NCBI GenBank assembly: GCA_025965315.1
Contig: JAOPXD010000154.1
Span: forward strand, 9,822 to 73,821
Direction: 5' to 3'
DNA length: 64,000 bases
Origin: Marmoricola sp.
Lineage (GTDB): Bacteria; Actinomycetota; Actinomycetes; Propionibacteriales; Nocardioidaceae
How positions within the stretch are numbered: the stretch's first letter is position 1; each line of letters starts with the position of its first letter. Made by a program: the position numbers and the translations under genes. Shown piece after piece: positions 2,765-39,674 of this stretch. The notes under the pieces were generated by a model, which searched no databases, was not told the DNA's origin, and saw only the letters and a list, made by a program, of their open reading frames with translations.

Positions 2765-2804
2765 GAGACCTCCAGAGGGGCGCAGTTGGTCTAAGTTAAC
2801 AGTC

Positions 2805-3926
2805 ATGCGCCCGGTGCTCGGCCTGGTCGCGGCCGGACTTTCGCTCGCGGCCGCCGGCTGCTCCTTCAGTTCGGTGAATCCCGACGCGCCGGTGCACATC
2901 TCGGGCCGGGTGCTGGACGCCGCCGGGCATCCGCTGACGCACACGAAGGTCCTGCTGTTCAAGCAGGCAGATATCGGCGAGGTCGTCTTCGGGACGGTCT
3001 TGGCGGTCGGCACGCTCTCGACGGTGTGCTTCCTGCCGGATCCGCCGGCGCTGTGCGAGAAGGCCCGGACCGTGACGACCGACAGCGACGGTCGCTACGC
3101 GTTCGACCTCAAGGGCTCCGACACCCAGGGCACCCTCGGTACGGCGTCGACGTTGAACGTGGTGTTCTCCGGTCCGAAGGCCCAGGGCAGCACCACGGTG
3201 AGCTTCACCGCCGAGAAGGCCGACATCACGCTGCCCGATGCTCGTCTGTGGCGTTCCGGGGCGCGTACAGCCGCGGGCTCGGGTGGGATCCGGCTGTCCT
3301 GGAGGTCGTTGCCGGGTTCCGCCGGCAGCCACCCCAGGTACTCGGCGCAGGTGTACGACGGCGACGGCACCGCGCTCTTCACCCAGTCCGCGTCAGGGGG
3401 GAACGCCACGGTCGACCCCCGGGTGCTGGAGGACACCTCCGGCACGGTCGCGGTCAGCGCCGGCACCTCGCTCAGCGGCGGCAGCGGCGGCGGGGACGTC
3501 CGAGCGAGCTTCCTCTCGGCACGGCTCCGGGCCCGCGGTGCCGGAGCGCCACCGTCGCGATCGCACCGCTGCGCAGCCGTGACCGGGACCGGCCCGGTCC
3601 ACGACGGAGCCTTCAGCCGCTGCGCCATCACCGACGGGCGGCTGGGCACGCCGGCCCGGCTGAGCGCCTCCGGCGGAGCGGTGGTCAGCGGTGCCCTCGT
3701 CGACCTCGGGTCGGTCCGACCGATCAGCCTCGTGGTGGCCCGCGGATTCGCCGGTCAGTTCCTGGTCGAGGTGTCCACGAACGGCACCACCTTCAGCCCG
3801 GTCACGACGGACACCGGGTCCGCTGCCGTCGTCGAGGTTCCCGCGGGCACGCGGGCGCGCTACGTGCGACTGCGCTCCCCCACCGGCCTCGACGAGAGCC
3901 TCAGCTCCGAGATCTCCGTCTGGTAG
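2805..3926 (+). CDS. Lipoprotein with a carboxypeptidase-regulatory-like N-terminal domain and a discoidin/F5-8-like C-terminus
   Basis: ATG at 2805, lipobox LAAAGC, ISGRVLDAAGHPL, TTDSDGRYAF, C-terminal VDLG...FLVEVSTNG...ARYVRL. Confidence 0.7.
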   Translation: MRPVLGLVAAGLSLAAAGCSFSSVNPDAPVHISGRVLDAAGHPLTHTKVLLFKQADIGEVVFGTVLAVGTLSTVCFLPDPPALCEKARTVTTDSDGRYAFDLKGSDTQGTLGTASTLNVVFSGPKAQGSTTVSFTAEKADITLPDARLWRSGARTAAGSGGIRLSWRSLPGSAGSHPRYSAQVYDGDGTALFTQSASGGNATVDPRVLEDTSGTVAVSAGTSLSGGSGGGDVRASFLSARLRARGAGAPPSRSHRCAAVTGTGPVHDGAFSRCAITDGRLGTPARLSASGGAVVSGALVDLGSVRPISLVVARGFAGQFLVEVSTNGTTFSPVTTDTGSAAVVEVPAGTRARYVRLRSPTGLDESLSSEISVW

Positions 3927-3955
3927 CCGTACCCGGCTTGCGTCCGGGCGCCTGC

Positions 3956-6900
3956 CTAGATCCGACTCTCGCAGTCGACCCCGGCATCGATGTCGTTCCC
4001 GTACGGCGACGTGAAGTACATGACGATGTCCATCACGAAGTCCGGGATGCTCACCCCGAGGAAGTTCGGGTCCGGAGCGATCAACCAGGCCGGCGGGTTG
4101 GACCCGTCGGAAGGCGGCGGCCCGAGCGTGAACGACGACCCGGAGGTGCTGCCCTCCGCACTCGGCCGCAGCTTCACGGCGAAGTCGCAGTACCCCAGGC
4201 CGATGTCGACCAAGCGGATCCCGAAGACCTTGGCGAGCCGGTTCGACGCCAACCTGAAGTGATCGATCACGTTGTTCAGGTTGATGTGCACCGGACCGGT
4301 GCTGAAGATGTCGATGTCGATGTCACTGATCGGGTTCGCGAACACCAGGTGCAGCGTGTCGTCCAGATCGATCTTGGTGGTGCTGTCGATCCCGAAGGTG
4401 AAGCTGCTGTAGTCGCCCTTGAGCCCGGTGGTGACGCCGAGGTCGAGCTGCAGGTTGCTGGCGTTCTCGAACCCGAGCGTCAGCTTGTGGATGTCGAGGT
4501 TGACCTTGAGGTTTCCGGTGTTCGTGATCGGTCCCGAGGAGAACCCGAGGTCGACGTTGAGGTTGAGGCCACCGGCGGCGTCGAGCAGGAACTTCTCCGT
4601 CGCCGGCGCCGAGGTGATCTTCAGCGTCGTGCCGTCGAGCTGTCCGGTGACCGTGCTGCCCATGTTCTGGATCAGCAGGTCGACGGCTGCGTTGGCGTTC
4701 ACCGGGGTAACGATCGCGGCGGTCGCGGTGGCGTCGATGTCCAGGCCGGGCTGGCTCGCCGTGAGCGTGAAGTCCGGTGCCGTGACGTCCTTGGTCCCGT
4801 CAGCGGCAGTCTCCTGACCGATGCTCAGGTTCACCGCGCTCGGGACGTCGTGCAGGTGCACGGCCGCCGCGAAGTTCAGGTCGCCGACCTTCTTGTACGA
4901 CGCCGTGATGTCACTGATCCCGTGACTCATCGCGATGCCGACCGTCTTCACGTCACCGAGGGAGGCGTCCACGTTGATCGAGGCCGGGATCTCGCTGATC
5001 TCGAGCTTGGCGTCGTCGGTGTTGCCGTAGGTCGCCTCTGCCGTCAGCGCACCGAGGTTCTGGTTCGCCGTGTAGCCGAGGTGCAGCTTGTGGTTCCCGT
5101 CCCCGTCGGTGCTCGAGGTGAACGGACCGAACTTGAAGTCCACCGGCGTCGCGGTCGGGATCTCCTGGGTCAGCTCCAGGGACAGCGGCTGCGGGGCCAG
5201 GGTCGTGAGCTTCACGTCGACGCCCAGCGTGCTGTTCGTCGGGTGGAACCCGTTGACCTGGTAGGTGCCGGCCGGCGCGTTCAGGTCCAGGCTGTCCGGC
5301 AGACCTGTGATGTACAGGTTCGCCCGTACGCCACGGTTGCCCGCGCCGTCCTGGCCGTCGCGCACCGCGATGCCGTGGATCGACGGCGGTGTCGGCGTCG
5401 CGGCCAGCGCGTCGGCCGACTGGGCCGCGGCGACCGACAGCGTCAGGTCGGGGTTGTCGTCACCGGTGTAGGTGATCCGACCACCATCGCTGGTGAGGTC
5501 GATGACCGACGGCAGGTGCGTGAAGTTGCCCGAGGCGACCAGCCGGCTGCCGGCGTCCAGGGTGACGTCCGCTCCGAAGTTGAGCTGACCGTGGTTGCCC
5601 ATGTTCAGCTTGGCCTCGAAGCCACCGCCGTTGCCGTCGGTGATCTTGTCGTAGCTGATCGTCTGCAGGTTGCTCACGTGCAGGCTCGCGTCGAGGTTGC
5701 CGCTCGGCTCGTCGAAGAACGCGTTGAGGTGATCACCGGGCAGCGTGTGCACGCTGGTGTGGTTGGTGACGTCCGCGTCGATCGAACCGATGCCCGTCCC
5801 GTTCGTGACGAACGAGACGTTGCCGTCGGCCCAGCCGGCGTGCCAGCTCGTCGGGATGTCGGCGATGGTCAGCCCGGCGTCGAACGCCCTCGCCCCGCCG
5901 ATGGTGGCCGGGGTCAGGTGCGCCTGCGCCGAGAAGCCGCCGGCTACCGACGAGGCGTCCCACTGGAGCTGGGAGTTCGCACCGTCGAAGGTGACGCCGA
6001 GGGTGGCCGGCACGTTCGTGATGTCCACGGCCACGTGGTCGGTGTTGGCGTCAGTCGCGTTCAGCCCGATCTCGTTGATCACGCTGCTGGCGGCGTACGT
6101 GATCTTGTTTCCGGCCTGCAGGACGTCGATCTCGGAGGGCACCTTGTCGATGAAGGCGGTCGCCTGGTCGTTCGGCGTCGTCACGTAGGCCCGGAAGAGC
6201 CGTGGCGCGGTGTTCTTGAGCTGTAGGTGCAGGTGCTGAGCGGTGGTATCCACCCCGAGGTACCGGAGTCCGCTGTACTGCAGCTCGGCGTGCGTGCTGT
6301 TCGCCAGATCGGTGTCCAGGTAGGCGTGGTCGTCCGCGGTCGGCGGGCTGGCGTAGACCCCGTCGGTGGCGTACTGGAAGAGGATCTTCCCGATGTCCGA
6401 GGACGCCGAGGGGTCGCTCGGACCTGTCCGCGCGTCGAACGTGATCGGGTCGAGCCCGCCGATCTTCATGTACTTCGGAAGGTCGTTGATCAGGCCGTGC
6501 AGGGCCAGGCCGCCGGGCTTCTCGGAGTAGTTGACGTCGATCGACCCGAGACGCGAGTCCGCGTTGTAGGCCACCTGCGGGTTGTCGCCGGAGGTGTTGA
6601 AGGTCAGCCCGATCGTCTGGGGCAGGTCCGTGAGCTTCGCGTCGCCGTGCATCCCGGAGTCGCGGTCGGTGAAGGTCGCGTCCATCTCCGGGATCACGCT
6701 CGAGGCCGTGTAGGTGGCGGCTCCGTTGGCGGGATCGAAGGTGACCTGCACGTTCGCCGGCAGCGCGTCGATGTGCGCGGTGGCCAGGACGTTCGGGTCG
6801 TCCAGGTCGGCGATGGCGTCGAACGACTGACCGCCCGGGCTCAGCCCCAGGGCCACTGCGGTGTTCGCGGACCCGTCGAAGTGCGCGGACTTGAATCCGG

Positions 6901-9061
6901 TGAGGCGGAAGTCCAGGCCGAGCTTGTTGCCCTGCTTGAGCACGGTCGCGTGGTCCTTGCCGGGCAGCGGCAGGATCGACCCGCCGTTGCGGGTCAGCGA
7001 GGCCGTGATCAACCCGATGCCCTGGTTGGCCGAGATGTCGTAGACCCCGGTGCTCTTGGTCTGCGTGAACGCCACGTGCGTCGGGATGCTGGTGGCGTTC
7101 GCGACCAGGTTGGTCTCGTCGCCGGCTTCGCTCTTGTCGTACATCCCGAGGGCGACCGAGCCCAGGTTGGAGTCGGCGTCGTAGGTCACGGCCTGCTGGT
7201 CTGCCGTGGTCACGTCGGTGACGTGGATCGACTTCGGGACCTGGTTCGCTGTCGCGTCGATCTGCTGCTGCAGCACGTTGTCGGCCAGTGTCTTGGTCGA
7301 GAACTGCACCTGCGGGATGGCCGCGTTGGCCGCGTACTTGATGTCCTGGCCGCCCTGCAGGTCCACGTGGACCGCAGTCGGGACGCCGAACACGTCGTAC
7401 TGGCTCTGCGTGTACGAACCCGCGTGGCTCACGTCACCGGTGGCGGTGTCGGTTGCCTGGACGTGCGCGATCGGGGCGCTGGCCTGGTAGTCGATGCTCT
7501 GCTTCTCGCCCTGGTGGACGAGGTCGACGGTGACCGAGGACGGCAGCTTGTCGATGAGCGCCGTGAACACGCGGTCGCTCTTCGGTGAGGTGGTCGTCGT
7601 CTTCTGGTCGACCGTGGCGTTCACGGTGGTCGGCGTGGAGGACTGGACGTTGACGGTGTCCTCGTCCGCGCTGCCGCTGTGGGTGAAACGGGCGTCCGCG
7701 GTGAACTTCTCCGGGAACGGCGACATCTGCATCGAGCCGGCGAGCGGGTTCTCCTCCGAGGGCTGGACGCCGGCCGAGCCGCCGACGAGGTCCTTGACCG
7801 CGAAGGTCAGCGCCTCGGTGGAGCCGGGCTGGCTGCTGGTCACGACCGCGCCGACGCCGATGTCGCCGGCCAGTGCTTTGGCGATGTTCTTGACCGTGAA
7901 GGTCGCACCGGAATTCTGGGCCAGCGTCGAGGCGCGGCCGTCGAAACCGATCTCGATCCGCTTCTTCACGACCGGGGTGTCGTAGACGGCGAAGACGTGG
8001 GCCGGCAACGGCGCACTGTGCAGCCGGGTCACCTGGAACTTGGCACCCACGTCGACGAGGTTGGTCACGGGGAAGAGCGCACCCAGGACATCGGGGACAC
8101 CGTCACCGGTCACGTCGGCAGGGATCGGAACGCCGATCGGCAGCGAGATGCTGCAGGACAGCGGCATGGTCGCCGACTCGGCACAGATCTTGTAGAACGC
8201 CGAGGCCAGGATGTTCACCACGGGAAGGGTGAACAGCACGCCCTCGATCTTGCTGATCAGCTGGAGCAGCTCGTTGACCGCCTGAAGGACCAGCGGCACC
8301 AGCGGGAGCTTGGTGATCGGGTTCGGCGCAAGGCCGATCGGCACGACGTTCGGGGTCAGCACGGCCTTCGCGGGCGTCGAGGACGTCGGCGTCGGGTTCG
8401 AGCTGATCAAGTTCTTCAGGGAGTTCGAGACGGCTCCGTCGGTGTTGCTCTGCAGGCTCGGCGCCGGGGCGTCCTGGGCGACCTTCGTCTGGTCGGCCGA
8501 GGTCAGGCTGTCGGCGGAGGTCAGGTTGTGCGACATCTGGGTGAGCGCCTGGGTGGTCTCATCGGTCTTCACCGGCTGCTGCTGCGCCGGTGGGCCGCTC
8601 GCGTCCGGGTCGTTCTCGAAGCCGTCGCGCATCTGGGCAAGCTCGCTCTTGCCGAAGATGAGCATGTACTCGCCGGTGATGTAGTCGTTCTTCTTCTTGA
8701 TCGACGGGTGGTCCCCGGTGGTGGCGAGCAGGTTGTCGACCAGGCAGGAGTCGAGCCATACCTTGACCTTCTCGCTCATCGAGTGGAAGCCCTCGGCGAG
8801 GATCGCGTCGGGGACCTTGGCGAGCTTGGCGTAGGAGGTCATCCAGTCGTGGTCGGCGAACCGCTTCGACCACAGGTCCACGAACCGGTCCCGGTTCGCG
8901 ACGGTGGCGTCAGGATCGGCCGGGACGTCCGCACACGTGGTGATCAGCTTCTCCGCCGCCGGCGGCGGTGCTGAGCCGGCGGAGGCCGCCGACGGGTTGA
9001 TGAAGCCGGCGACCCCTAGGGACACCACAGCAACCACAGAAACCCAGAATTTTGTCCGCAT
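3956..9061 (-). CDS. Giant secreted beta-rich repeat protein (~1701 aa), function unknown
   Basis: ATG at 9061 starts a Sec signal MRTKFWVSVVAVVSLGVAGFINPSAASA; 5.1 kb without a stop; GC-ending codons; recurring [IL]xx[LVI]Pxx[IVL]x[LV] motif. Confidence 0.9.
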   Translation of the reverse strand: MRTKFWVSVVAVVSLGVAGFINPSAASAGSAPPPAAEKLITTCADVPADPDATVANRDRFVDLWSKRFADHDWMTSYAKLAKVPDAILAEGFHSMSEKVKVWLDSCLVDNLLATTGDHPSIKKKNDYITGEYMLIFGKSELAQMRDGFENDPDASGPPAQQQPVKTDETTQALTQMSHNLTSADSLTSADQTKVAQDAPAPSLQSNTDGAVSNSLKNLISSNPTPTSSTPAKAVLTPNVVPIGLAPNPITKLPLVPLVLQAVNELLQLISKIEGVLFTLPVVNILASAFYKICAESATMPLSCSISLPIGVPIPADVTGDGVPDVLGALFPVTNLVDVGAKFQVTRLHSAPLPAHVFAVYDTPVVKKRIEIGFDGRASTLAQNSGATFTVKNIAKALAGDIGVGAVVTSSQPGSTEALTFAVKDLVGGSAGVQPSEENPLAGSMQMSPFPEKFTADARFTHSGSADEDTVNVQSSTPTTVNATVDQKTTTTSPKSDRVFTALIDKLPSSVTVDLVHQGEKQSIDYQASAPIAHVQATDTATGDVSHAGSYTQSQYDVFGVPTAVHVDLQGGQDIKYAANAAIPQVQFSTKTLADNVLQQQIDATANQVPKSIHVTDVTTADQQAVTYDADSNLGSVALGMYDKSEAGDETNLVANATSIPTHVAFTQTKSTGVYDISANQGIGLITASLTRNGGSILPLPGKDHATVLKQGNKLGLDFRLTGFKSAHFDGSANTAVALGLSPGGQSFDAIADLDDPNVLATAHIDALPANVQVTFDPANGAATYTASSVIPEMDATFTDRDSGMHGDAKLTDLPQTIGLTFNTSGDNPQVAYNADSRLGSIDVNYSEKPGGLALHGLINDLPKYMKIGGLDPITFDARTGPSDPSASSDIGKILFQYATDGVYASPPTADDHAYLDTDLANSTHAELQYSGLRYLGVDTTAQHLHLQLKNTAPRLFRAYVTTPNDQATAFIDKVPSEIDVLQAGNKITYAASSVINEIGLNATDANTDHVAVDITNVPATLGVTFDGANSQLQWDASSVAGGFSAQAHLTPATIGGARAFDAGLTIADIPTSWHAGWADGNVSFVTNGTGIGSIDADVTNHTSVHTLPGDHLNAFFDEPSGNLDASLHVSNLQTISYDKITDGNGGGFEAKLNMGNHGQLNFGADVTLDAGSRLVASGNFTHLPSVIDLTSDGGRITYTGDDNPDLTLSVAAAQSADALAATPTPPSIHGIAVRDGQDGAGNRGVRANLYITGLPDSLDLNAPAGTYQVNGFHPTNSTLGVDVKLTTLAPQPLSLELTQEIPTATPVDFKFGPFTSSTDGDGNHKLHLGYTANQNLGALTAEATYGNTDDAKLEISEIPASINVDASLGDVKTVGIAMSHGISDITASYKKVGDLNFAAAVHLHDVPSAVNLSIGQETAADGTKDVTAPDFTLTASQPGLDIDATATAAIVTPVNANAAVDLLIQNMGSTVTGQLDGTTLKITSAPATEKFLLDAAGGLNLNVDLGFSSGPITNTGNLKVNLDIHKLTLGFENASNLQLDLGVTTGLKGDYSSFTFGIDSTTKIDLDDTLHLVFANPISDIDIDIFSTGPVHINLNNVIDHFRLASNRLAKVFGIRLVDIGLGYCDFAVKLRPSAEGSTSGSSFTLGPPPSDGSNPPAWLIAPDPNFLGVSIPDFVMDIVMYFTSPYGNDIDAGVDCESRI

Positions 9062-9119
9062 GTGTCCGAGACCTTCCGCACTGGTCGAACGGAACGACCG
9101 CCGACGGCCGTCCTGCATC

Positions 9120-9245
9120 GAAGTTGACTATTGACCTGTTGTCGGCGAGTTGACAAGACCATTTCTAAAGATTTCCTGAATGTATGTGAAAGGTGATGAA
9201 CAATCTAAAACCAGACATTTCTTCGTCCTTTTCCGGGTCATTTCG
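9120..9245. promoter_or_regulatory. AT-rich divergent promoter region with TTGAC repeats and a TTGTC-N8-GACAA palindrome
   Basis: Visibly AT-rich; TTGAC at 9124, 9131 and 9150; inverted repeat 9139-9156. Confidence 0.45.
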
Positions 9246-9374
9246 GGCACCCTCGGCGATACGCGCGGACGCGACGGTGAGCAGGAGGTCCGGGACCGGA
9301 GCCGGTACGACGCTGCTCCCCCGGCTGCCGACATCGGTGCCGCGGGTCCCGCCTATCGTGGGGTCGTGCCAGGT

Positions 9375-10370
9375 ATGGATCAGATGTCGCAGCTCTCCCC
9401 GTTCGGGTGGGGTTCCTTCGTGCACCACGGAAACTTCCAGCCCGGCTGGACAGCCGTCGGGATCGTGCTCGTCGTCGGCTACCTCCGCGCGCTGAGCCAC
9501 GGTCAGCGACGCGGTGCGCACCTGTCGACGTGGCGGATCGCCTCGTTCCTCGCGGGCGTCGTGCTGCTGGTCGCCACCGTCAGCTCGGCGATCGACGTCT
9601 ACGCGATGTCGCTGTTCTGGGTGCACATGATCGAGCACCTGCTGCTGATCATGGTCGTCCCTGCGCTGCTCGTGCTGGGCCATCCGCTGACCGTCCTGCG
9701 GCAGGCGCACGACGAAGCCGGCCAGGCCCGGTTCGACGCGGTCGTGCGGTCCGGTCCGGTCGCGCTGCTGACCCACCCGGCCGTCGGCCTGGCCCTGTAC
9801 GCCGCCGTGATCATCGGCACCCACCTGACCGGGTTCATGGACCAGATGGCGATGCACGCCTGGCTGATGACCGCCGAGCAGGCCACCTACGTCATCGCCG
9901 GCTACCTGCTGCTGCTTCCGCTGCTGGGTCGCGAACCGGTCCGCTGGGAGATCCCCTACCTGCCGCGGATCGTGCTGATCCTGGTGGCGATGGTCCCGGA
10001 CACGGTCGTCGGGCTGGTGCTGCTGCAGTCGAACAACGACAGCTTCCCGATGATGTTCGCGATGCACCCGTCCTGGGCGCCGAGCGCGGTCGACGACCAG
10101 CAGATCGCCGGTGGCCTGATGTGGGCGGTCGGCGACGGCCTGATGATGCTGGTCGGCGTCGCGGTCGTGATCGCGATGATCTCCGACCCCCAGCGCGGTC
10201 GCGTCCTGGGCCCCTGGCTGGAGTCGGCCCGGCGGTCGGCGATGGCCGATCACCTCGTCCAGAGCGGCGGCTCGGAGCAGATCGGTGCCGGAGCCGACGT
10301 CGATGACGACGACGCCGTCCTGGACGCCTACAACGCGATGCTCGGACGTCTCTCGGATCCGGGCGCCTGA
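9375..10370 (+). CDS. Cytochrome c oxidase assembly factor, Caa3_CtaG family
   Basis: Multi-TM; YAMSLFWVHMIEHLLLIMVVPALLVLGHP; DDQQIAGGLMWAVGD. Start uncertain. Confidence 0.85.
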   Translation: MDQMSQLSPFGWGSFVHHGNFQPGWTAVGIVLVVGYLRALSHGQRRGAHLSTWRIASFLAGVVLLVATVSSAIDVYAMSLFWVHMIEHLLLIMVVPALLVLGHPLTVLRQAHDEAGQARFDAVVRSGPVALLTHPAVGLALYAAVIIGTHLTGFMDQMAMHAWLMTAEQATYVIAGYLLLLPLLGREPVRWEIPYLPRIVLILVAMVPDTVVGLVLLQSNNDSFPMMFAMHPSWAPSAVDDQQIAGGLMWAVGDGLMMLVGVAVVIAMISDPQRGRVLGPWLESARRSAMADHLVQSGGSEQIGAGADVDDDDAVLDAYNAMLGRLSDPGA

Positions 10371-10382
10371 GCGACACCGAAC

Positions 10383-10402
10383 CCCGGTCCCCGACCCGGG
10401 GG
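10383..10402 (+). terminator. GC hairpin after the CtaG-like gene
   Basis: CCCCGG...CCGGGG inverted repeat just after the stop at 10370. Confidence 0.35.
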
Positions 10403-10417
10403 CACTAGTCTCAGCGG

Positions 10418-12136
<1,719 letters not shown>

Positions 12137-12326
12137 CCCGACGACGACCTACGGGTCGCGAAGGCGGAACGCCGCGGCTGCCGATTTCCGGACCCTGAGG
12201 AGCACCGGTGTCGACGTCGCCGGCTCGTGGTTGCCGTCCCCGGCGTACACGGCCTCGACCTCGCAGGCCACGAGCTTGCCGCGGCGCGACTCTCACCCGC
12301 GTACCCCGCCCCAGTAACCTCGTGCC

Positions 12327-13715
12327 ATGGACTCCGAGCTGTTCAGGATCGAGCACGACTCGCTCGGCGAGGTCCGCGTGCCCGCCGATGCCCTGTGGGG
12401 CGCCCAGACCCAACGGGCGATCGAGAACTTCCCCATCTCCGGCGTGCCGCTCGCCGAGCGCCACGTCCGCGCGCTCGCGCTGATCAAGCTGGCTGCCGCA
12501 CGCGTCAACAGCCGGCTCGACGTCCTCGACGCCGACCGCGCCACGGCGATCGAGGGCGCCGCCTCGAAGGTCGCCGAGGGTGGCGCTACCGATGCCTTCC
12601 CGATCGACATCTTCCAGACGGGGTCGGGCACCAGCTCCAACATGAACATGAACGAGGTGCTCGCCCGGCTGGCGTCGACCGGGAGCACAGCGATCCACCC
12701 CAACGACCACGTCAACGCCAGCCAGTCGAGCAACGACGTCTTCCCGACCTCGATCCACGTGGCTGCAGCGACCGCTGTCGTCGAGGACCTCCAGCCGGCG
12801 CTGGCACTACTGGCGACGTCGCTGGAGGCCAAGGCGGTCGAGTTCGCCGGGCTGGTGAAGTCCGGCCGCACGCACCTGATGGACGCGACCCCGGTGATGC
12901 TCGGGCAGGAGTTCGGGGGCTACGCCGCGACGGTGACCCTGGCCGGCGAGCGGCTCGACGCGGTCCTGCCCCGGGTCCGGGAGCTGCCGCTGGGCGGCAC
13001 CGCTGTCGGCACCGGGATCAATACCCCCGCGGGCTTCTCCGCGGCCGTGATCGCCGAGCTCGCCGAGCTGACCGGGCAGCCTTTCACCGAGGCCCGCAAC
13101 CACTTCGAGGCCCAGGGCACCCGCGACTCGCTGGTCGAGCTCAGCGGGGTCCTCAAGACGATCGCGGTCGGGCTCACGAAGATCTGCAACGACCTGCGCT
13201 GGATGTCCTCGGGGCCGACCACCGGGCTCGCCGAGATCCACCTGCCCGACCTGCAACCGGGATCGAGCATCATGCCCGGGAAGGTGAACCCGGTCCTGCC
13301 CGAGGCAACCCTGATGGTCTGCGCCCAGGTGATCGGCAACGACACCGCCATCACGGTCGCCGGCGCCGCGGGGAACTTCGAGCTGAACGTGATGATGCCG
13401 GTGATCGCCCGGAACCTGCTCGAGTCGATCCGGATCCTCAGCACCTCCACCAGCCTGCTGGCGACCCGGTGCGTCGACGGCATCACCGCCGACGCCGAGC
13501 GGATGCACCGCTACGCCGCGTCCTCGCCGTCGGTGGTCACCCCGCTCAACAAGTACCTCGGGTACGAGGAGGCTGCCAAGGTGGCCAAGGAGTCCCTCAA
13601 GCACGGCCGCACGATCCGGGAACAGGTCCTGGAGATGGGGTACGTCGATCGCGGCGTCGTCACCCTTGAACAGCTCGACGCAGCCCTCGACATCGAAGGA
13701 ATGACCCACCCGTGA
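12327..13715 (+). CDS. fumC: Class II fumarate hydratase
   Basis: [37 protein letters not shown] signature. Confidence 0.93.
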
Positions 13716-35370: not shown

Positions 35371-35437
35371 GCCGTCACCGGGACGTAATCCCCGCAGCGG
35401 GCATTCCCGAACGTGGCCGGGCACACTGGTACGGACG

Positions 35438-35463
35438 GGAACAGTGCCGCAGCTGCCGCGGTT
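35438..35463 (+). promoter_or_regulatory. SigR/SigH-type promoter of msrA
   Basis: GGAAC-N18-GTT, matching the known GGAA(T/C)-N18-GTT consensus. Confidence 0.7.
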
Positions 35464-35494
35464 GTCACGGGTGCACCCGAGGTGAGGAGAACCG

Positions 35495-36139
35495 ATGTTG
35501 TTCAACAAGTTCAAGACCCAGGTCGTCGACCCGGAGCACGCCCTGGCGGGCCGTGCCGAGCCCGGGTTCCGGCTCTCCGAACGGCACCGCGTGCTCGACG
35601 CTCCCCTGGTCACCGACGAGGTCCCCGCGGGCTACGAGGTGGCGCTGTTCGGTCTCGGCTGCTTCTGGGGATCCGAGGAGATCTTCTGGCAGGTCCCCGG
35701 CGTGTGGTCGACCTCGGTCGGGTACGCCGGCGGAACGACCCCCAACCCGTCGTACGAAGAGGTCTGCTCGGGCCGCACCGGTCACACCGAGGCAGTCCGG
35801 GTCGTCTTCGATCCCACGAAGGTCAGCTACGCCGACCTGGTCGCAGCGTTCTACGAGGTGCACGACCCCACGCAGAGCATGCGCCAGGGCAACGACGTCG
35901 GCACCCAGTACCGCTCCGCGATCTACACCTTCTCCGACGAGCAGGCGCAGGTCGCCAAGGAGGTCACCGAGCGCTACCAGCCCGAGCTCACCAAGCGCGG
36001 CTACGGCAGCATCGCGACCGAGATCAAGCCGGCCGTCGAGTACTTCTACGCCGAGGACCACCACCAGCAGTACCTGGCGAAGAACGTAAACGGATACCGC
36101 TGTCACAGCTCGACAGGTATCAAGGTCCCGCGGGACTGA
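35495..36139 (+). CDS. msrA: Peptide methionine sulfoxide reductase A
   Basis: FGLGCFWGSE, YEEVCSGRTGHTE, QGNDVGTQYRS, YYAE-like FYAEDHHQQYL, GYRCH. Confidence 0.96.
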   Translation: MLFNKFKTQVVDPEHALAGRAEPGFRLSERHRVLDAPLVTDEVPAGYEVALFGLGCFWGSEEIFWQVPGVWSTSVGYAGGTTPNPSYEEVCSGRTGHTEAVRVVFDPTKVSYADLVAAFYEVHDPTQSMRQGNDVGTQYRSAIYTFSDEQAQVAKEVTERYQPELTKRGYGSIATEIKPAVEYFYAEDHHQQYLAKNVNGYRCHSSTGIKVPRD

Positions 36140-36288
36140 GGTGAGTGGCACGCCGGTTATCGGGGCGTGGTCGGCATTGTCTCGGCCAGGTCGTCCGCCG
36201 GGGCCGTTCTCCCGCGCTGTGGTGTCTGCGCACGTGGTGTCCGGTTACCTCACGCGCCTAGAACCAGCCCGCCACCTCACCAATGACG

Positions 36289-36320
36289 AGCGCCCCCGCA
36301 CCGGACGGTGCAGGGGCGCT
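36289..36320 (-). terminator. Terminator of the islet operon
   Basis: AGCGCCCCTGCACC-GTCC-GGTGCGGGGGCGCT 14-bp stem with one U-G pair on the minus strand, 19 nt after the stop at 36339. Confidence 0.7.
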
Positions 36321-36338
36321 GCTGGTGTCTCTACGACG

Positions 36339-37058
36339 TCAAGGTCTCGGCGTCGGTGCGGTGGTGCCCCCACCTGGGCCGTTCATCCCGCTGGTGCCAG
36401 TACCTGAGCCGGAGCCCGTACCCGACCCCGGGCCTCCAGCCGCCTGCTTCAACGACTGGGTCGCGTCCGCGGCCTCGTCCTTGACCGTCTCGGCCGAGGA
36501 GCTCGCCTCGTCCTCAACCATCTCGGCGGAGGACTTCACCTCCTCCTGGACGTGCGCAGCGCCGTCCCGGGCCGTCTCCATCAGGTCCCCGGCCGCACTC
36601 GTCGCGGCGTCTTTCAGGTTCTGCGCGCCTTCCTCGATCACCGGCTGTGCCTGCTCCTTAGCAGCGTCGACCGCCTTCCTGGCGACGTCGGCTTCCTGCT
36701 TGCTCGCCGGGATTATCGACGAGACGACCAGGCCGACGCCGAAGGCAGCCAGACCGGCAGCGAGGGGGTTCCCCTTCGCTGTCCGGACCGCGCCCTGCGC
36801 GCCGTGGGCCACGCTGTGTGCGGCGTCCTGAGCGGAGCCGGCCACGTCGGAGGCCTTGTCGGTCATGGTGCTTCCGGCGTCGGAGGCGGTGCCCATCACC
36901 GACTCACGGATCGAGCTGAGCCGGTTGACGGCGGCCTGCTTCTGGCGGTGCACTACCTTCCCCGGGCTCACCTTGTCGCTGAACTCGTCGACGTCCCGCG
37001 CCAGGTTTCGCCGGGACTCCTCGATGCTGCCGGTCAGTTCTTCTGTGCTTTGGCCCAT
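36339..37058 (-). CDS. DUF3618-like protein with helical repeats
   Basis: MGQSTEELTGSIEESRRNLARDVDEFSDKVSP, GNPLAAGLAAFGVGLVVSSIIP. Confidence 0.8.
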   Translation of the reverse strand: MGQSTEELTGSIEESRRNLARDVDEFSDKVSPGKVVHRQKQAAVNRLSSIRESVMGTASDAGSTMTDKASDVAGSAQDAAHSVAHGAQGAVRTAKGNPLAAGLAAFGVGLVVSSIIPASKQEADVARKAVDAAKEQAQPVIEEGAQNLKDAATSAAGDLMETARDGAAHVQEEVKSSAEMVEDEASSSAETVKDEAADATQSLKQAAGGPGSGTGSGSGTGTSGMNGPGGGTTAPTPRP

Positions 37059-37471
37059 TGCACGTCCTCCTTCAGGGTCTGCTGGGTCTCGGGAAGTTGC
37101 GGGTTGCTCTCCTTGAGCTTCGCCTTCCCCCGGAGTGCAAGCACCGCGGCTGCGGCACCGTAGATGACTGCGACGATCAAGCTTGCGAGTTCGCGCGGCA
37201 TCCAGTTGTCGAGCAGGTAAACCAGCGCCAGGGACCCGAAGAACACCGCGAAGTAGCCGGCCAGACCGGCGCCCCCGAACATCCCTGCGCCCTTCGCCGC
37301 CGTAGTCGCCTCCTTCTTGAGCTCGACCTTCGCGAGGTCCAGCTCGGCACGGACCAGGGAACTCAGGTCGGTGCTGATATCGGAGACGATCGCCCCGAGC
37401 GAGCGGGGCTCCCCCTCGCGCTGCTGGCCAACCTCCTGACCGACGTGCTGCCCCACCTGAGGTGCTGTCAC
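37034..37471 (-). CDS. Actinobacterial holin-like membrane protein (Phage_holin_3_6)
   Basis: SLGAIVSDISTDLSSLVRAELDLAKVE, two TMs, LPETQQTLKEDVQWAK. Confidence 0.85.
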   Translation of the reverse strand: MTAPQVGQHVGQEVGQQREGEPRSLGAIVSDISTDLSSLVRAELDLAKVELKKEATTAAKGAGMFGGAGLAGYFAVFFGSLALVYLLDNWMPRELASLIVAVIYGAAAAVLALRGKAKLKESNPQLPETQQTLKEDVQWAKAQKN

Positions 37472-38133
37472 AACAGATCACCGCCCTGCGGCGGCACCAC
37501 CGGGGCGGCGGGGTGCGCGGCACCCGTCTTGTCGGCAGGAACCGGCGAGGGCGCGACCGCGCCAGCGTTGCTTAGCGGGGTGCCCTGCGTGCCGTTGCTG
37601 GTCTGCGGCGAGCTGGGGGCGTCCTTCGCGCCGCGGACCAGACGTCCGGCGACGACCCCGGCGGCAAGTGCACCGAGGAGGAAGGTGCCGGGCCGACGTT
37701 GGGCGAAGGTCTTGACGTCGTCCAGCAACTCCCGCGGCTCGCGGCCATCGATGCTGCTGGACAGCTGCCGGGCCTTGTCCGCCACCTGTCGTGTTAGGTC
37801 CGCAGCGACTCCCCCGTGGGCGCTCGAAGCCATCTGCTCCAGGTCCTCGCCGAAGTTCCGCAGCGTGTCGACGAGGCGGTCCCGCTGGACGTGGGACTGC
37901 TCCTCGACCTGCTTCAGCGACTCGTCGAGCAGCGCCCGGGCATGGTCTTTGGTCTCGGCGGCGAGGTTCTGAGCCTCGTCACGTGCCGTGCCGGCCACCT
38001 GGCCAGCCTGTTCCTTCGCGGCGCTGGCCACCTGAGCGGCCTGCTCCTTGGCGGTCTCGGTCGTCGAGCTGGCCTTGTCCGCCGCTTCCTGTTTCAGATC
38101 CGAGACTTTCTCGGACACGTTAGTACTGGTCAT
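37468..38133 (-). CDS. Hypothetical helical-repeat protein (first gene of the holin/DUF3618 operon)
   Basis: ATG 38133 after GAAGGAG; AKEQAxQVA repeats; RRPGTFLLGALAAGVVAGRL. Confidence 0.8.
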   Translation of the reverse strand: MTSTNVSEKVSDLKQEAADKASSTTETAKEQAAQVASAAKEQAGQVAGTARDEAQNLAAETKDHARALLDESLKQVEEQSHVQRDRLVDTLRNFGEDLEQMASSAHGGVAADLTRQVADKARQLSSSIDGREPRELLDDVKTFAQRRPGTFLLGALAAGVVAGRLVRGAKDAPSSPQTSNGTQGTPLSNAGAVAPSPVPADKTGAAHPAAPVVPPQGGDLL

Positions 38134-38342
38134 CTGATCTCTCCTTCGTGCTAGGCAGAGCGCGTATCTAATGACTACCCAGCACTCCGAGGCGTATGCG
38201 CAGGTCTGCCGGACGGGCCGCTGAGTACGCTTGGAACGGTCCTCGGGGTACCGGGTGCGACCGAAGACCCTCTGACCCGCGGACACCCGAGGGATCACAG
38301 GACTCAAGTTCGTGAATGAACTATCGCCAGCTCACGACTGCT

Positions 38343-38422
38343 ACCACCAGCAGTACCTGGCGAAGAACCCGTTCGGGTACCGCTGCCACTCGGCGACGGG
38401 GATCAAGGTCCCGACCGCCTGA
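38343..38422 (+). pseudogene. msrA: Displaced 3' fragment of msrA
   Basis: Reads YHQQYLAKNPFGYRCHSATGIKVPTA* with host-like GC-ending codons; no upstream msrA body. Confidence 0.85.
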
Positions 38423-38438
38423 CCCGGTTCGACGAACA

Positions 38439-38464
38439 TGTCGTATCCACCTTCCACCGTTCGT
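38439..38464 (+). promoter_or_regulatory. ECF-type promoter, copy 1
   Basis: TGTCGTATCC-N8-CCGTTCGT; overlapped by a perfect 12-bp hairpin CCACCTTCCACC/GGTGGAAGGTGG. Confidence 0.6.
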
Positions 38465-38511
38465 GGACAAGGTGGAAGGTGGTCAGAGCGGCCGCCGAAC
38501 GAGGAGGAGTC

Positions 38512-38877
38512 ATGCCCCAGTACGTGATCGTGTTCAACGCCGAGTGGGTTCCCGACCTCACCGAGGATCAGATCCTGGAGCGCGCTGAGGCCACCGGGGT
38601 GCTGGCCGGCGAGATGAAGGCCGCCGGGGTGTGGGTGTTCGGAGGCGGCCTCGACGCTGATTCGCTGGTGGCCGGCGTCGACCTGGTCGACAGCAAGCCG
38701 GTGCTGCTCGACGGCCCGTACGCCGAGACGAAGGAGCATCTCGGCGGCTTCTGCGTCGTGGACGTGCCCGATGACGAGACGGCCAGCGGCTGGGCCGCGA
38801 AGGTTGCCGTCGCGTGCGGATGGCCGCAGCAGCTGCACCGGTTGGGGGTCCCGCCGCACCTGCGGGGCGACCGGTAG
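38512..38877 (+). CDS. YciI/DGPF family protein
   Basis: DGPYAETKEHLGGF; GAGGAGGAG RBS. Confidence 0.9.
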   Translation: MPQYVIVFNAEWVPDLTEDQILERAEATGVLAGEMKAAGVWVFGGGLDADSLVAGVDLVDSKPVLLDGPYAETKEHLGGFCVVDVPDDETASGWAAKVAVACGWPQQLHRLGVPPHLRGDR

Positions 38878-38910
38878 CTCCTGGCACCTGCTCGAGTGTG
38901 CAGGGCGCGC

Positions 38911-38936
38911 TGTCGTATCCGGCTGCCGCCGTTCGT
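38911..38936 (+). promoter_or_regulatory. ECF-type promoter, copy 2
   Basis: TGTCGTATCC-N8-CCGTTCGT, same arms and spacing as copy 1. Confidence 0.6.
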
Positions 38937-38983
38937 TGAGAAGCTGGACGCGGCCGCACGGGTCACGCCGAGTAGGAGGAGAC

Positions 38984-39337
38984 ATGCCTGAGTACCTGAT
39001 CGCGTTCAACGACGAGTGGGTCGGCGACCACACCGACGAGGAACTCCGGGAGAAGTCCAGGGTCCTCAAGCCGTTGATCGCGGAGATGAAGGCTCTCGGC
39101 GTCCTGATCTTCACCGGTGGCCTGGACGACGCTGCGCCCGTCTTCAGCGTGGACGCCTCGACCGGTACGCCGCTGTTCACCGACGGCCCGTTCGCCGAGA
39201 CGAAGGAGCACCTCGGCGGCTTCGCGGTCGTGGACGTCGCAGACGAGGACGCCGCGCGGCTGTGGGCGGGAAAGATCGCGACTGCCTGCGGTTGGCCCCA
39301 GGAGGTCCACCGGTTCCAGCCCCACCCCGAGCAGTGA
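38984..39337 (+). CDS. YciI/DGPF family protein (paralog)
   Basis: TDGPFAETKEHLGGF; AGGAGGAG RBS. Confidence 0.9.
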   Translation: MPEYLIAFNDEWVGDHTDEELREKSRVLKPLIAEMKALGVLIFTGGLDDAAPVFSVDASTGTPLFTDGPFAETKEHLGGFAVVDVADEDAARLWAGKIATACGWPQEVHRFQPHPEQ

Positions 39338-39339
39338 CG

Positions 39340-39674
39340 CCCGGCTACCTGACGGAACGTGCCTCGGGTGATCTCGGTGAGCCGGTCGGCATCCTCGACG
39401 TGGAGGTACAGGCTCGTCGAGCTCGCTGCTGCGTCGTCCGCTGGTAGTGCTCGACGGCTCACGCGACGTCGTCGACGCGGAAGATCGGCTCGTGGCCCAC
39501 GACCCGAACCGGACCGCCGGTGCGGGCGATCTGGAGATCCCGTTGGCTGGTCATCCAGTCGATGCAGTCGTAGCAGACCCGAACGTCCGTGTCGGGCCAC
39601 AACCTCACAGAACCGCGCGTCAACGGCTCCTCGCAGCACGCACAGGCCGGCGCAGCTGGCAGCAGGTCGCTCAC
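39340..39674 (-). pseudogene. Decayed Cys-rich + VOC/bleomycin-resistance-like gene
   Basis: CACC...CYDC N-terminus, then PIFRVDDVA*AVEHYQR (in-frame TGA), and SLYLHVEDADRL in a shifted frame after an apparent deletion. Confidence 0.6.

What the first reader, a model, noticed from the sequence alone, without database searches (positions are those of the whole stretch)
36060..38422. Integrase-less islet inserted into msrA that swaps in a replacement C-terminus and keeps the resolving Cys
Seen: an exact 26-bp direct repeat (36060-36085, 38343-38368) flanks 2.3 kb. After copy 1 the gene ends VNGYRCHSSTGIKVPRD, with atypical codons (GTA, GGA, TGT, ACA, GGT). After copy 2 an orphan tail reads PFGYRCHSATGIKVPTA, with GC-ending codons. 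The tails share 37 of 54 nt (hand count) and many differences are synonymous, so both look selected as MsrA. Established: phages and ICEs that integrate in genes restore the 3' end from attP. Inference: a circular element used msrA as attB, and the active MsrA now has a foreign C-terminus. No integrase remains, so it is a reduced remnant or is mobilised in trans. I know of no described element that targets msrA.
Basis: partly seen in the sequence, partly recalled or inferred. Interest (0 to 1): 0.8.

Follow-up and report, generated by a model that had tools for sequence, protein, structure and literature searches.

The report
Recombinase-less islet in msrA's tail
A 2.3-kb piece of foreign DNA sits in the last codons of the repair gene msrA and supplies a substitute gene end; relatives show that this spot is a recurrent landing site for islands driven by a serine recombinase, and this copy has no recombinase of its own.

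Summary
An exact 26-bp direct repeat (36060-36085, 38343-38368) flanks 2,283 bp, and it opens two msrA tails that match at 37 of 54 nt. The nearest relative with an uninterrupted msrA (G020) and about 90 genus members end msrA with the "orphan"-type tail (KNPFGYRCH...). K-N/H-V tails occur only in genomes that also hold a second tail.

The same site is occupied by islands carrying a large serine recombinase (LSR) about 35 nt from the orphan tail. These are G001, G394, Nocardioides sp. Soil774 and a complete 22-kb island in G243. Their reconstructed attP is symmetric, with TACGT at -22 and ACGTA at +19 around CA of the QQYL codons. The odd Asn-Val codons (AAC GTA) of this window's new tail are that ACGTA half-site.

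The islet has no recombinase and lacks the left half-site, and the genome has no cognate LSR. Its cargo is a single-copy DUF3618/Holin-X operon. Similar recombinase-less islets, some in tandem arrays of up to four tails, recur across the family.

Verdict: a real insertion, CIME- or pseudo-SCC-like, at a target gene for which I found no published report. How recombinase-less islets move is unresolved.

The parts
35495..36139 (+). msrA, chimeric: native body up to the repeat, then an element-derived C-terminus
   Evidence: PF01625, E 2.8e-62. Single copy in the genome. The body is 82-85% identical to the msrA of G020 and G001, and the upstream DUF5995 gene is syntenic.
36060..36085 (.). direct repeat copy 1 (attL side), exact 26 bp; holds the 11-bp core CAGCAGTACCT (36065-36075) shared by all junction pairs. 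The inferred crossover dinucleotide CA is at 36065-36066.
   Evidence: The core is the intersection of attL/attR identity in 10 genomes. The centre of symmetry comes from the four LSR islands.
36086..36139 (+). foreign msrA tail VNGYRCHSSTGIKVPRD*, which is the P' arm of the former attP. ACGTA at 36084-36088 is the conserved outer half-site motif.
   Evidence: GC3 0.667 against 0.944 for the native tail. 86% identical over 57 nt to the element-borne tail of G001. ACGTA sits at +19..+23 in every K-N/H-V tail.
36140..36338 (.). non-coding left end of the islet
   Evidence: No GC3-supported ORF. No similarity to the other islets or islands.
36339..37058 (-). cargo gene 3: DUF3618 protein (239 aa)
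   Evidence: PF12277, E 4.8e-10. Single copy. GC3 0.85.
37034..37471 (-). cargo gene 2: Holin-X family membrane protein (145 aa)
   Evidence: PF07332, E 4.6e-36. Its GTG overlaps the stop of the gene before it (GTGA). GC3 0.83.
37468..38133 (-). cargo gene 1: 221-aa helical protein with no Pfam family
   Evidence: Only weak sub-threshold NCBIfam matches, to coiled-coil and stator-type models. GC3 0.84.
38134..38342 (.). non-coding right end of the islet, where the LSR gene and the P half-site lie in complete islands; neither is present here
   Evidence: Positions -22..-18 read GCCAG, not TACGT. tblastn of the cognate LSRs finds nothing here.
38343..38368 (.). direct repeat copy 2 (attR side); core at 38348-38358
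38369..38422 (+). orphan native msrA tail PFGYRCHSATGIKVPTA*, no longer attached to a gene body
   Evidence: Together with the repeat before it (38343-38422), 95% identical over 80 nt to the native msrA end of G024 and 90-94% to G020 and G001. The same amino-acid tail ends the native msrA of G024 and G012.

Best explanation
The 2,283-bp islet is the footprint of site-specific integration into the QQYL codons of msrA. The elements responsible belong to a family of genomic islands in Nocardioidaceae that are driven by a large serine recombinase (LSR).

These islands carry an attP whose right arm (P') imitates the last 17-20 codons of msrA. After recombination at CA (36065-36066) the host gene therefore reads on into an element-borne tail. 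The original tail is left behind as an orphan at the far end.

The unusual Asn-Val codons AAC GTA are the recombinase's outer half-site (ACGTA) written in the msrA reading frame. That explains the atypical codons.

The copy in this window is recombinase-less. It keeps attL, the core and the native tail, but it has neither the LSR gene nor the left half-site (TACGT at -22), and the genome holds no cognate LSR. I therefore read it as a stranded, CIME- or pseudo-SCC-like islet. Its cargo is a DUF3618 / Holin-X / helical-protein operon, the only copy in this genome.

Shown: the repeat, the empty site, the LSR islands at the same site, the motif symmetry, and the absence of an LSR here.

Inferred: that an LSR made this particular junction; the crossover position; and how the recombinase end came to be missing. 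For that last point I put about 55% on arrival as a recombinase-less cassette mobilised in trans, and about 45% on a secondary loss.
For: The repeat is real and the assembly is sound.

There is an empty site in G020, and the native KNPF tail is found across the genus.

Four islands have an LSR about 35-40 nt from the orphan tail and transcribed away from it. They are G001, G394, Soil774 (at least 30 kb) and G243 (a complete 22,051-bp island in a closed contig). The LSRs are 53-72% identical to each other.

All four have TACGT at -22..-18 and ACGTA at +19..+23, within otherwise diverged arms. G000's attL has ACGTA at the same place.

G000's new tail is closest to G001's element tail, at 86% over 57 nt. 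K-N/H-V tails never occur as a genome's sole tail.

The islet genes have lower GC3 (0.83-0.85) than the flanks (0.91-0.95). None of 80 homologous operons in metagenomes lies beside msrA.

The cyclase-like cassette and the sequence at its right end are 95% identical in G446 and G260, yet different tails follow them. The break in similarity is at the core.
Against: No LSR, LSR fragment or TACGT half-site lies at the islet's right end. The right junction is therefore not a clean reciprocal attR.

Beyond the msrA-like 7 nt, its P-arm similarity to the real P arms is at chance level, 4-5 of 10.

The left limit of msrA homology in orphan tails varies between islets, from about -18 to 0, and lies to the right of the core in G382's third tail. 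One fixed crossover does not by itself explain that.

No excised form, empty-site read or attP-form junction was found. The left end just after the new stop codon is unrelated to that of G001.
Confidence: 0.7

Rival explanations
1. RecA-dependent Campbell insertion. A small circle that already carried an msrA 3' fragment, for example one popped out of another strain's array by recombination between two tails, entered by a single homologous crossover within the 26 bp of identity. No site-specific recombinase acted in this event.
For: This rival predicts the same final structure. The 26-bp exact tract, within 80 nt at 79%, is about the minimum that homologous recombination needs. The left limits of homology vary between islets. 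In G309 and G382 the tails of one array are nearly identical over 60-70 nt, as gene conversion would make them. There is no recombinase in the islet or the genome.
Against: 26 bp is a very poor substrate. The new tail carries the ACGTA half-site of the LSR islands at the exact position. In 13 of 14 orphan-side junctions the msrA homology begins within 18 nt upstream of the same 11-bp core, rather than anywhere in the tail. G382's third tail is the exception. Islets with homologous cargo sit at msrA in two genera whose tails are too diverged for efficient homologous recombination.
Confidence: 0.15
2. A different, unidentified recombination system moves the recombinase-less islets, with a junction about 8 nt left of the core. 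The LSR islands merely share the same hot spot.
For: Four recombinase-less right ends (G000, G210 middle, G446 third and fourth) read GCTACCAC just before the core, with unrelated sequence beyond. None of 9 recombinase-less islets has the TACGT half-site.
Against: CTACCAC is also what a DYH-type msrA reads (G382, G309) and what the genuine P arm of G001 reads, so it may simply be inherited. No candidate enzyme gene was seen in any islet. G000's tail carries the LSR's ACGTA motif.
Confidence: 0.08
3. A local duplication of the msrA 3' end followed by rearrangement, with no mobile element involved.
For: Two msrA tails in direct orientation. The neighbourhood does show local rearrangements and a YciI tandem duplication.
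Against: The tails differ at 17 of 54 nt, and the new one has AT-ending codons. The new tail matches element-borne tails of other genomes better than it matches its own orphan. The insert's genes have a different GC3 and no paralogue in the genome.
Confidence: 0.03
4. An assembly or binning artefact that joins two strains' msrA ends.
For: The genome is a 217-contig metagenome bin. msrA k-mers from many organisms pile up on 35640-36125 in the soil runs.
Against: One unitig spans 36048-38375 with no difference, at the same depth as both flanks. Pieces of the islet also occur in two further samples. The same architecture is present in isolate and closed genomes.
Confidence: 0.02

Closest known systems
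CIMEs (cis-mobilizable elements), e.g. those left at the 3' end of fda by ICESt1/ICESt3-type elements in streptococci
   Same: [quoted passage not shown] Tandem accretion with further elements occurs (definition and three-step model in PMC5704250). The arrays in G446, G382 and G210 look like this.
   Different: The recombinase family here is a large serine recombinase, not a tyrosine integrase. The target is msrA. No conjugation or mobilisation genes were identified in the parts of the parent islands I examined (Soil774, G243). G000's attR lacks the element-side half-site, so 'retained attL and attR' is only half met.
SCC / SCCmec and ccr-less SCC-like cassettes at the 3' end of rlmH (orfX) in staphylococci
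   Same: Large serine recombinases integrate cassettes into the last codons of a conserved gene while keeping it open. Direct repeats flank each cassette. Composite arrays and att pairs without a recombinase gene are common (PMC13739063).
   Different: Different phylum, different target gene, and a single LSR that is not a Ccr. The Soil774 LSR scores 52 bits against a 900-bit cut-off for CcrB. The replaced gene end is about 17 codons long and carries a recognisable half-site.
Phage and island serine integrases that target protein-coding genes (Bxb1 in groEL1, A118 in comK, SPbeta in spsM; my own knowledge)
   Same: LSR with Resolvase + Recombinase + Zn-ribbon domains next to one attachment site. 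Short att sites centred on a non-palindromic dinucleotide.
   Different: Those insertions split or inactivate the target gene, and some restore it on excision. Here the element brings a working replacement end, and the identity between attB and attP is long (11-26 bp) because both encode QQYL.
Integron cassette arrays
   Same: Serial, promoter-proximal stacking of small cassettes of one to three genes, separated by copies of one recombination site. Cassettes have no recombinase of their own.
   Different: No IntI tyrosine recombinase, attI or attC was seen. The repeated site is a protein-coding gene end. Cassette genes lie in either orientation and have their own upstream regions.

Membership tests
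msrA-targeting LSR islands (family defined here from G001, G394, Soil774, G243) | Inserted at the CAGCAGTACCT core in the QQYL codons of msrA, with the native tail left as an orphan | tested here: met
   Core at 36065-36075 and 38348-38358 inside the 26-bp repeat. The orphan tail matches relatives' native tails.
msrA-targeting LSR islands (family defined here from G001, G394, Soil774, G243) | Element-borne msrA tail with ACGTA at +19..+23 (K-N/H-V) | tested here: met
   ACGTA at 36084-36088. The same motif is present in all four LSR islands.
msrA-targeting LSR islands (family defined here from G001, G394, Soil774, G243) | Large serine recombinase gene about 35-40 nt from the orphan-side core | tested here: not met
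   There is no ORF or tblastn match in 38134-38342. The best LSR in the genome is 25% identical and lies on another contig.
msrA-targeting LSR islands (family defined here from G001, G394, Soil774, G243) | P-arm half-site TACGT at -22..-18 | tested here: not met
   G000 reads GCCAG there. Four of four LSR islands have TACGT and none of 9 recombinase-less islets do.
CIME (cis-mobilizable element) | [quoted passage not shown] | tested here: met
   The only genes are a DUF3618 protein, a Holin-X protein and a helical protein.
CIME (cis-mobilizable element) | Retains functional attL and attR of the parent element | tested here: inconclusive
   attL has the host arm, the core and the P' motif. attR has the core and the native arm but not the P half-site. 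Function was not assayed.
CIME (cis-mobilizable element) | Can be excised or transferred together with an element integrated alongside it | not testable with these tools
   No excision joints were found in the soil runs. Arrays in relatives (G446, G382, G210) are compatible with this, but they are not a test.
SCC elements | Ccr-type recombinase and integration at the rlmH 3' end | tested here: not met
   The target is msrA. The family's LSR is far below the CcrB and CcrC cut-offs. It works like an SCC element but is not a member.
Integron | IntI tyrosine recombinase with attI, and cassettes ending in attC | not tested
   No tyrosine recombinase was seen in the loci I read, but I ran no dedicated search.

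The most novel reading that the evidence does not exclude
The 3' end of msrA in Nocardioidaceae works as an integron-like capture platform. Small recombinase-less cassettes, each headed by its own msrA-tail site, are inserted, stacked and exchanged at the QQYL core. The enzymes are serine recombinases supplied in trans by the larger islands. The window's islet would be one such cassette, not a decayed island.
Probability: 0.25. Interest if true: 0.8.

Novelty: new member of a known kind. Interest (0 to 1): 0.55.

Why it matters
It adds a well-defined attachment system to the large serine recombinases. The attB lies in a near-universal gene, the predicted attP spans about 46 bp and is symmetric, and a complete reference island and a cultured host (Nocardioides sp. 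Soil774) are available.

It shows plainly how one short sequence can serve two masters: a recombinase half-site and the C-terminus of an enzyme.

It also shows that SCC- or CIME-style accretion of recombinase-less cassettes at a gene end occurs in soil Actinomycetota. The cassettes carry stress, metal, regulatory and small-enzyme cargo.

For genome annotation, orphan msrA tails are a cheap marker for such islets.

Tried and rejected
(1) Excision or empty-site reads. Four soil runs were laid on 35400-39000. The only joints that skip the islet have about 30-nt sides at 90% likeness and come from other organisms' msrA. There is no evidence of excision.

(2) attP-form junction (G000 right end joined to a KNV tail) in 241 million metagenome records: 0 hits.

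(3) The same islet elsewhere. The best cargo homologue in metagenomes is 71% identical in protein, and in the genus 65-72% in DNA. None lies beside msrA.

(4) A cognate recombinase in this genome. There are only two unrelated LSRs, and the better-matching one is about 25% identical. The assembly is 90.5% complete, so absence is not proven.

(5) The islet as a deletion derivative of the G001 island. The left ends diverge directly after the stop codon, so it is not the same island.

(6) Conserved right-end (P-arm) motif among recombinase-less islets. Similarity beyond the msrA-like 7 nt is at chance level. A shared GAATGAAC in G000 and G446 was not pursued, and I do not rely on it.

(7) Holin-X as a sign of a prophage remnant. 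There are no other phage genes. The three-gene cluster recurs in the genus at loci away from msrA and in soil metagenomes.

(8) Promoter and terminator scan of the islet: nothing above the shuffled expectation.

(9) Literature. Six searches for msrA as an attachment site found nothing relevant. 'msrA' hits in staphylococci concern the macrolide-resistance gene.
Full report
OBSERVATION

The window holds msrA at 35495-36139 (PF01625). The 26-mer ACCACCAGCAGTACCTGGCGAAGAAC occurs at 36060-36085 and again at 38343-38368. There is no third copy in the window, even with three mismatches, and none in 100 shuffles. There is none elsewhere in the 4.07-Mb, 217-contig assembly.

The similarity runs on for 80 nt at 79%. 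Codon by codon, five of the ten differing codons are synonymous. GC3 is 0.667 in the new tail and 0.944 in the orphan tail.

A unitig from an independent assembly of a soil run covers 36048-38375 without a difference. Its depth is 19.8, against 19 and 20.1 in the flanks. Fragments of the islet also occur in two other samples of the same study. The structure is real.

THE INSERT

Three minus-strand genes lie between the repeats.
- 37468-38133: a 221-aa helical protein with no family.
- 37034-37471: a Holin-X protein (PF07332).
- 36339-37058: a DUF3618 protein (PF12277).

The first two overlap as GTGA. About 200 bp of non-coding DNA lies at each end. There is no recombinase.

GC3 of the three genes is 0.83-0.85, against 0.91-0.95 for the neighbours. 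All three genes are single-copy in this genome. The closest DNA relatives in the genus are 65-72% identical and lie at other loci. Among 80 homologous loci from metagenomes, none is next to msrA.

EMPTY SITE AND NATIVE TAIL

G020 is one of the two nearest relatives (85% in msrA). Its msrA is uninterrupted and ends ...AKNPFGYRCHTATGIKVPS*. After 0.6 kb comes a YciI region that is 91% identical to 38437-38864.

In 18 further genus members fetched the tail is KNP(F/Y)GYRCH, apart from one KVPNGYRCH variant in G019. A pattern scan of all 103 genomes of the genus gives the same picture. G024 and G012 end with exactly the orphan's amino-acid sequence, and G024 matches 38343-38422 at 95%. So the orphan is the host's own tail.

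THE SAME SITE IS USED BY SERINE-RECOMBINASE ISLANDS

G001 is the other nearest relative. Its msrA ends AKNVNGYRCHSATGIKVPRG* at a contig end. Another contig ends with an orphan AKNPFGYRCH... tail. About 29 nt before that orphan's repeat, the start of a serine recombinase gene reads away from it.

G394 (record title Marmoricola sp. RYN_204) shows the same arrangement, with a VFGYRCH tail.

Nocardioides sp. Soil774 has a 503-aa recombinase with Resolvase, Recombinase and zinc-ribbon domains next to its orphan tail. Its KNVF-tailed msrA is on another contig. The island is at least 30 kb with 59-65% G+C. It carries DUF4062, a weak sub-threshold Card1-like endonuclease match, GGACT and DUF3800 genes. 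An IS3 element breaks the contig.

G243 belongs to another genus and has the whole thing in one closed contig. The island measures 22,051 bp from core to core. msrA ends AKHVNGYRCH... The cargo is two cation-efflux proteins, CopC, CopD/CtaG, ResB, a thioredoxin-like protein, Lnt, a small resolvase and a 705-aa unknown. A 516-aa LSR lies 35 nt from the orphan-side core.

The four recombinases are 53-72% identical to each other. KNV and KHV tails occur in ten of 401 sampled family genomes, in four genera. In the complete genus list they never occur as a genome's only tail.

WHY THE CODONS ARE ODD

I take the first base of the core CAGCAGTACCT as position 0. All four LSR islands then have TACGT at -22..-18 on the element side of the orphan junction. 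They have ACGTA at +19..+23 in the element-borne tail. The sequence in between has diverged.

Joined as attP, this is a 46-bp inverted-repeat site centred on the dinucleotide CA at positions 0-1. In G394 and Soil774 that is also where the identity between the two junctions begins. Size, symmetry and a non-palindromic centre are what is expected of a large-serine-recombinase site (my own knowledge of the family).

In the msrA frame, ACGTA is read as A-AC GTA, which gives Asn-Val where the host has Asn-Pro. The window's new tail has ACGTA at 36084-36088. The rare GTA, and probably the other A/T-ending codons, are therefore a recombinase half-site constrained to encode a usable MsrA end.

That the tail must stay usable is inference. 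The aligned Cys of GYRCH lies one residue after the corresponding Cys of bovine MsrA.

WHAT IS MISSING IN THIS WINDOW

At -22..-18 the window reads GCCAG. Beyond the 7 nt (CTACCAC) that are msrA-like anyway, its right end resembles the true P arms no better than chance, at 4-5 of 10.

No recombinase fragment is present. The genome's two LSRs are unrelated; the better-matching one is about 25% identical. The left end just after the new stop codon differs from that of G001.

Hence attL looks like a true product of attP x attB, but the right junction is not its clean reciprocal.

RECOMBINASE-LESS ISLETS ARE COMMON

Scans of 401 family genomes and of the 103 genus genomes found many cases of two or more tails on one contig.
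- G442: 2.56 kb with a KNVN tail; cargo is a hydrolase, an SDR and a TetR regulator.
- G413 (another genus): 2.58 kb with homologous cargo, at 52%, 33% and 44% amino-acid identity.
- G382: two islets of 4.5 and 2.35 kb.
- G210: two islets of 2.07 and 0.78 kb.
- G309: 456 bp.
- G324: 1.8 kb.
- G446: four tails, hence at least three islets of 1.4-1.6 kb each.

None of them holds a recombinase. Their interiors are unrelated to each other and to the window's islet. The exception is the homologous cargo of G413 and G442 noted above, which was found at protein level.

Internal tails decay. There is a frameshift in G446, a stop codon in G324, and CAGGGG in place of CAGCAG in G382.

One cassette of G446 carries a 418-aa adenylate-cyclase-like gene. 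It recurs at 95% DNA identity in G260, with a tail on each side. There it sits inside a different LSR island between tpiA and secG, while G260's own msrA is uninterrupted. The sequence at the cassette's right end is the same in both genomes, but the tail that follows it differs. So exchange has taken place at the core.

Against a single precise mechanism, the left limit of msrA homology varies from about -18 to 0, and in G382's third tail it lies to the right of the core.

READING

I commit, with confidence 0.7, to the following. The window's junctions descend from integration by this LSR family at the QQYL core. The new C-terminus is the element's P' arm. The islet is now a stranded, recombinase-less unit.

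Whether it arrived without a recombinase or lost it afterwards cannot be settled from sequence.
- For arrival in trans: the recurrence of the islets, the absence of recombinase fragments in about ten of them, homologous cargo in two genera, and the G446/G260 exchange.
- For later loss: the missing half-site, and no cognate enzyme in the genome.

I put this at about 55:45 in favour of arrival in trans.

Homologous recombination of a tail-bearing circle (0.15) gives the same structure. It fits the 26-bp tract poorly and does not explain the half-site.

KNOWN RELATIVES

The closest concepts are two.
- CIMEs: decayed elements that keep their att sites at a gene's 3' end and accrete with newcomers (PMC5704250).
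- SCC elements and their ccr-less relatives at the rlmH 3' end, which are moved by large serine recombinases (PMC13739063).

The present case works like both and is a member of neither. The target gene differs, the recombinase is not a Ccr, and no transfer genes were identified in the parts of the parent islands I examined.

Six searches of the held literature gave no report of msrA as an attachment site. That library is incomplete, so this is absence of evidence only.

VERDICT

It is a new member of a known kind. It also brings a broader lead: tail-flanked cassette arrays at msrA across a bacterial family. Interest 0.55.

Noticed in passing
L073 (G446:C25:1-8000), tails at 4751, 3180, 1790, 172 (minus strand): Four msrA tails in a row, so at least three stacked recombinase-less islets of 1.4-1.6 kb. 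PF-type and VN-type tails alternate, and the second tail is frameshifted. The contig ends inside the array.
   Followed up: partly
L074 (G260:C3:676500-696400), about 4003-12640; cassette about 8420-9912: An 8.6-kb island lies between tpiA and secG. It has its own 467-aa LSR and a small resolvase. It contains a 'tail - 418-aa adenylate-cyclase-like gene - tail' unit that is 95% identical to one cassette of the G446 msrA array. G260's own msrA (L076) is uninterrupted.
   Followed up: partly
L072 (G442) 5374-7932 and L030 (G413) 3725-6307: Two recombinase-less msrA islets in different genera carry homologous cargo: an alpha/beta hydrolase (52% amino-acid identity), a TetR regulator (44%) and an SDR (33%). 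Their tails differ (KNVN against KNPY).
   Followed up: partly
L157+L158 (G243:C1:3309800-3334000): A complete 22-kb LSR island at msrA with copper/zinc and cytochrome-maturation cargo (two CDF proteins, CopC, CopD/CtaG, ResB, a thioredoxin-like protein, Lnt). It also has a small resolvase and a 705-aa protein with no family next to the LSR.
   Followed up: partly
window 39459-39674 (minus strand): A 71-aa ORF (Cys-rich N-terminus, then ...VVGHEPIF) looks like the truncated front of a longer gene. In G020 that gene lies between msrA and YciI (L023, about 2790-3330, minus strand). The region downstream of msrA has been rearranged between close relatives.
   Followed up: no
window 38439-38843 and 38911-39315: A tandem duplication with a 472-bp period. 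It covers both YciI genes and their upstream regions, at 73-82% identity (families D1, D3, D8).
   Followed up: no
L059-L061 (Nocardioides sp. Soil774, G429): The msrA island of at least 30 kb has low G+C (0.59-0.65). It holds DUF4062, a weak sub-threshold Card1-like endonuclease match, GGACT, DUF3800 and a second small resolvase, which looks like a defence island. The contig is broken by an IS3-family element.
   Followed up: partly
L036-L047: Recombinases 60-79% identical in the N-terminus to the msrA-type LSR occur in N. pocheonensis, Isoptericola, Geodermatophilus, Blastococcus and Ilumatobacter. No msrA tail lies nearby, so close relatives of the enzyme appear to use other targets.
   Followed up: no
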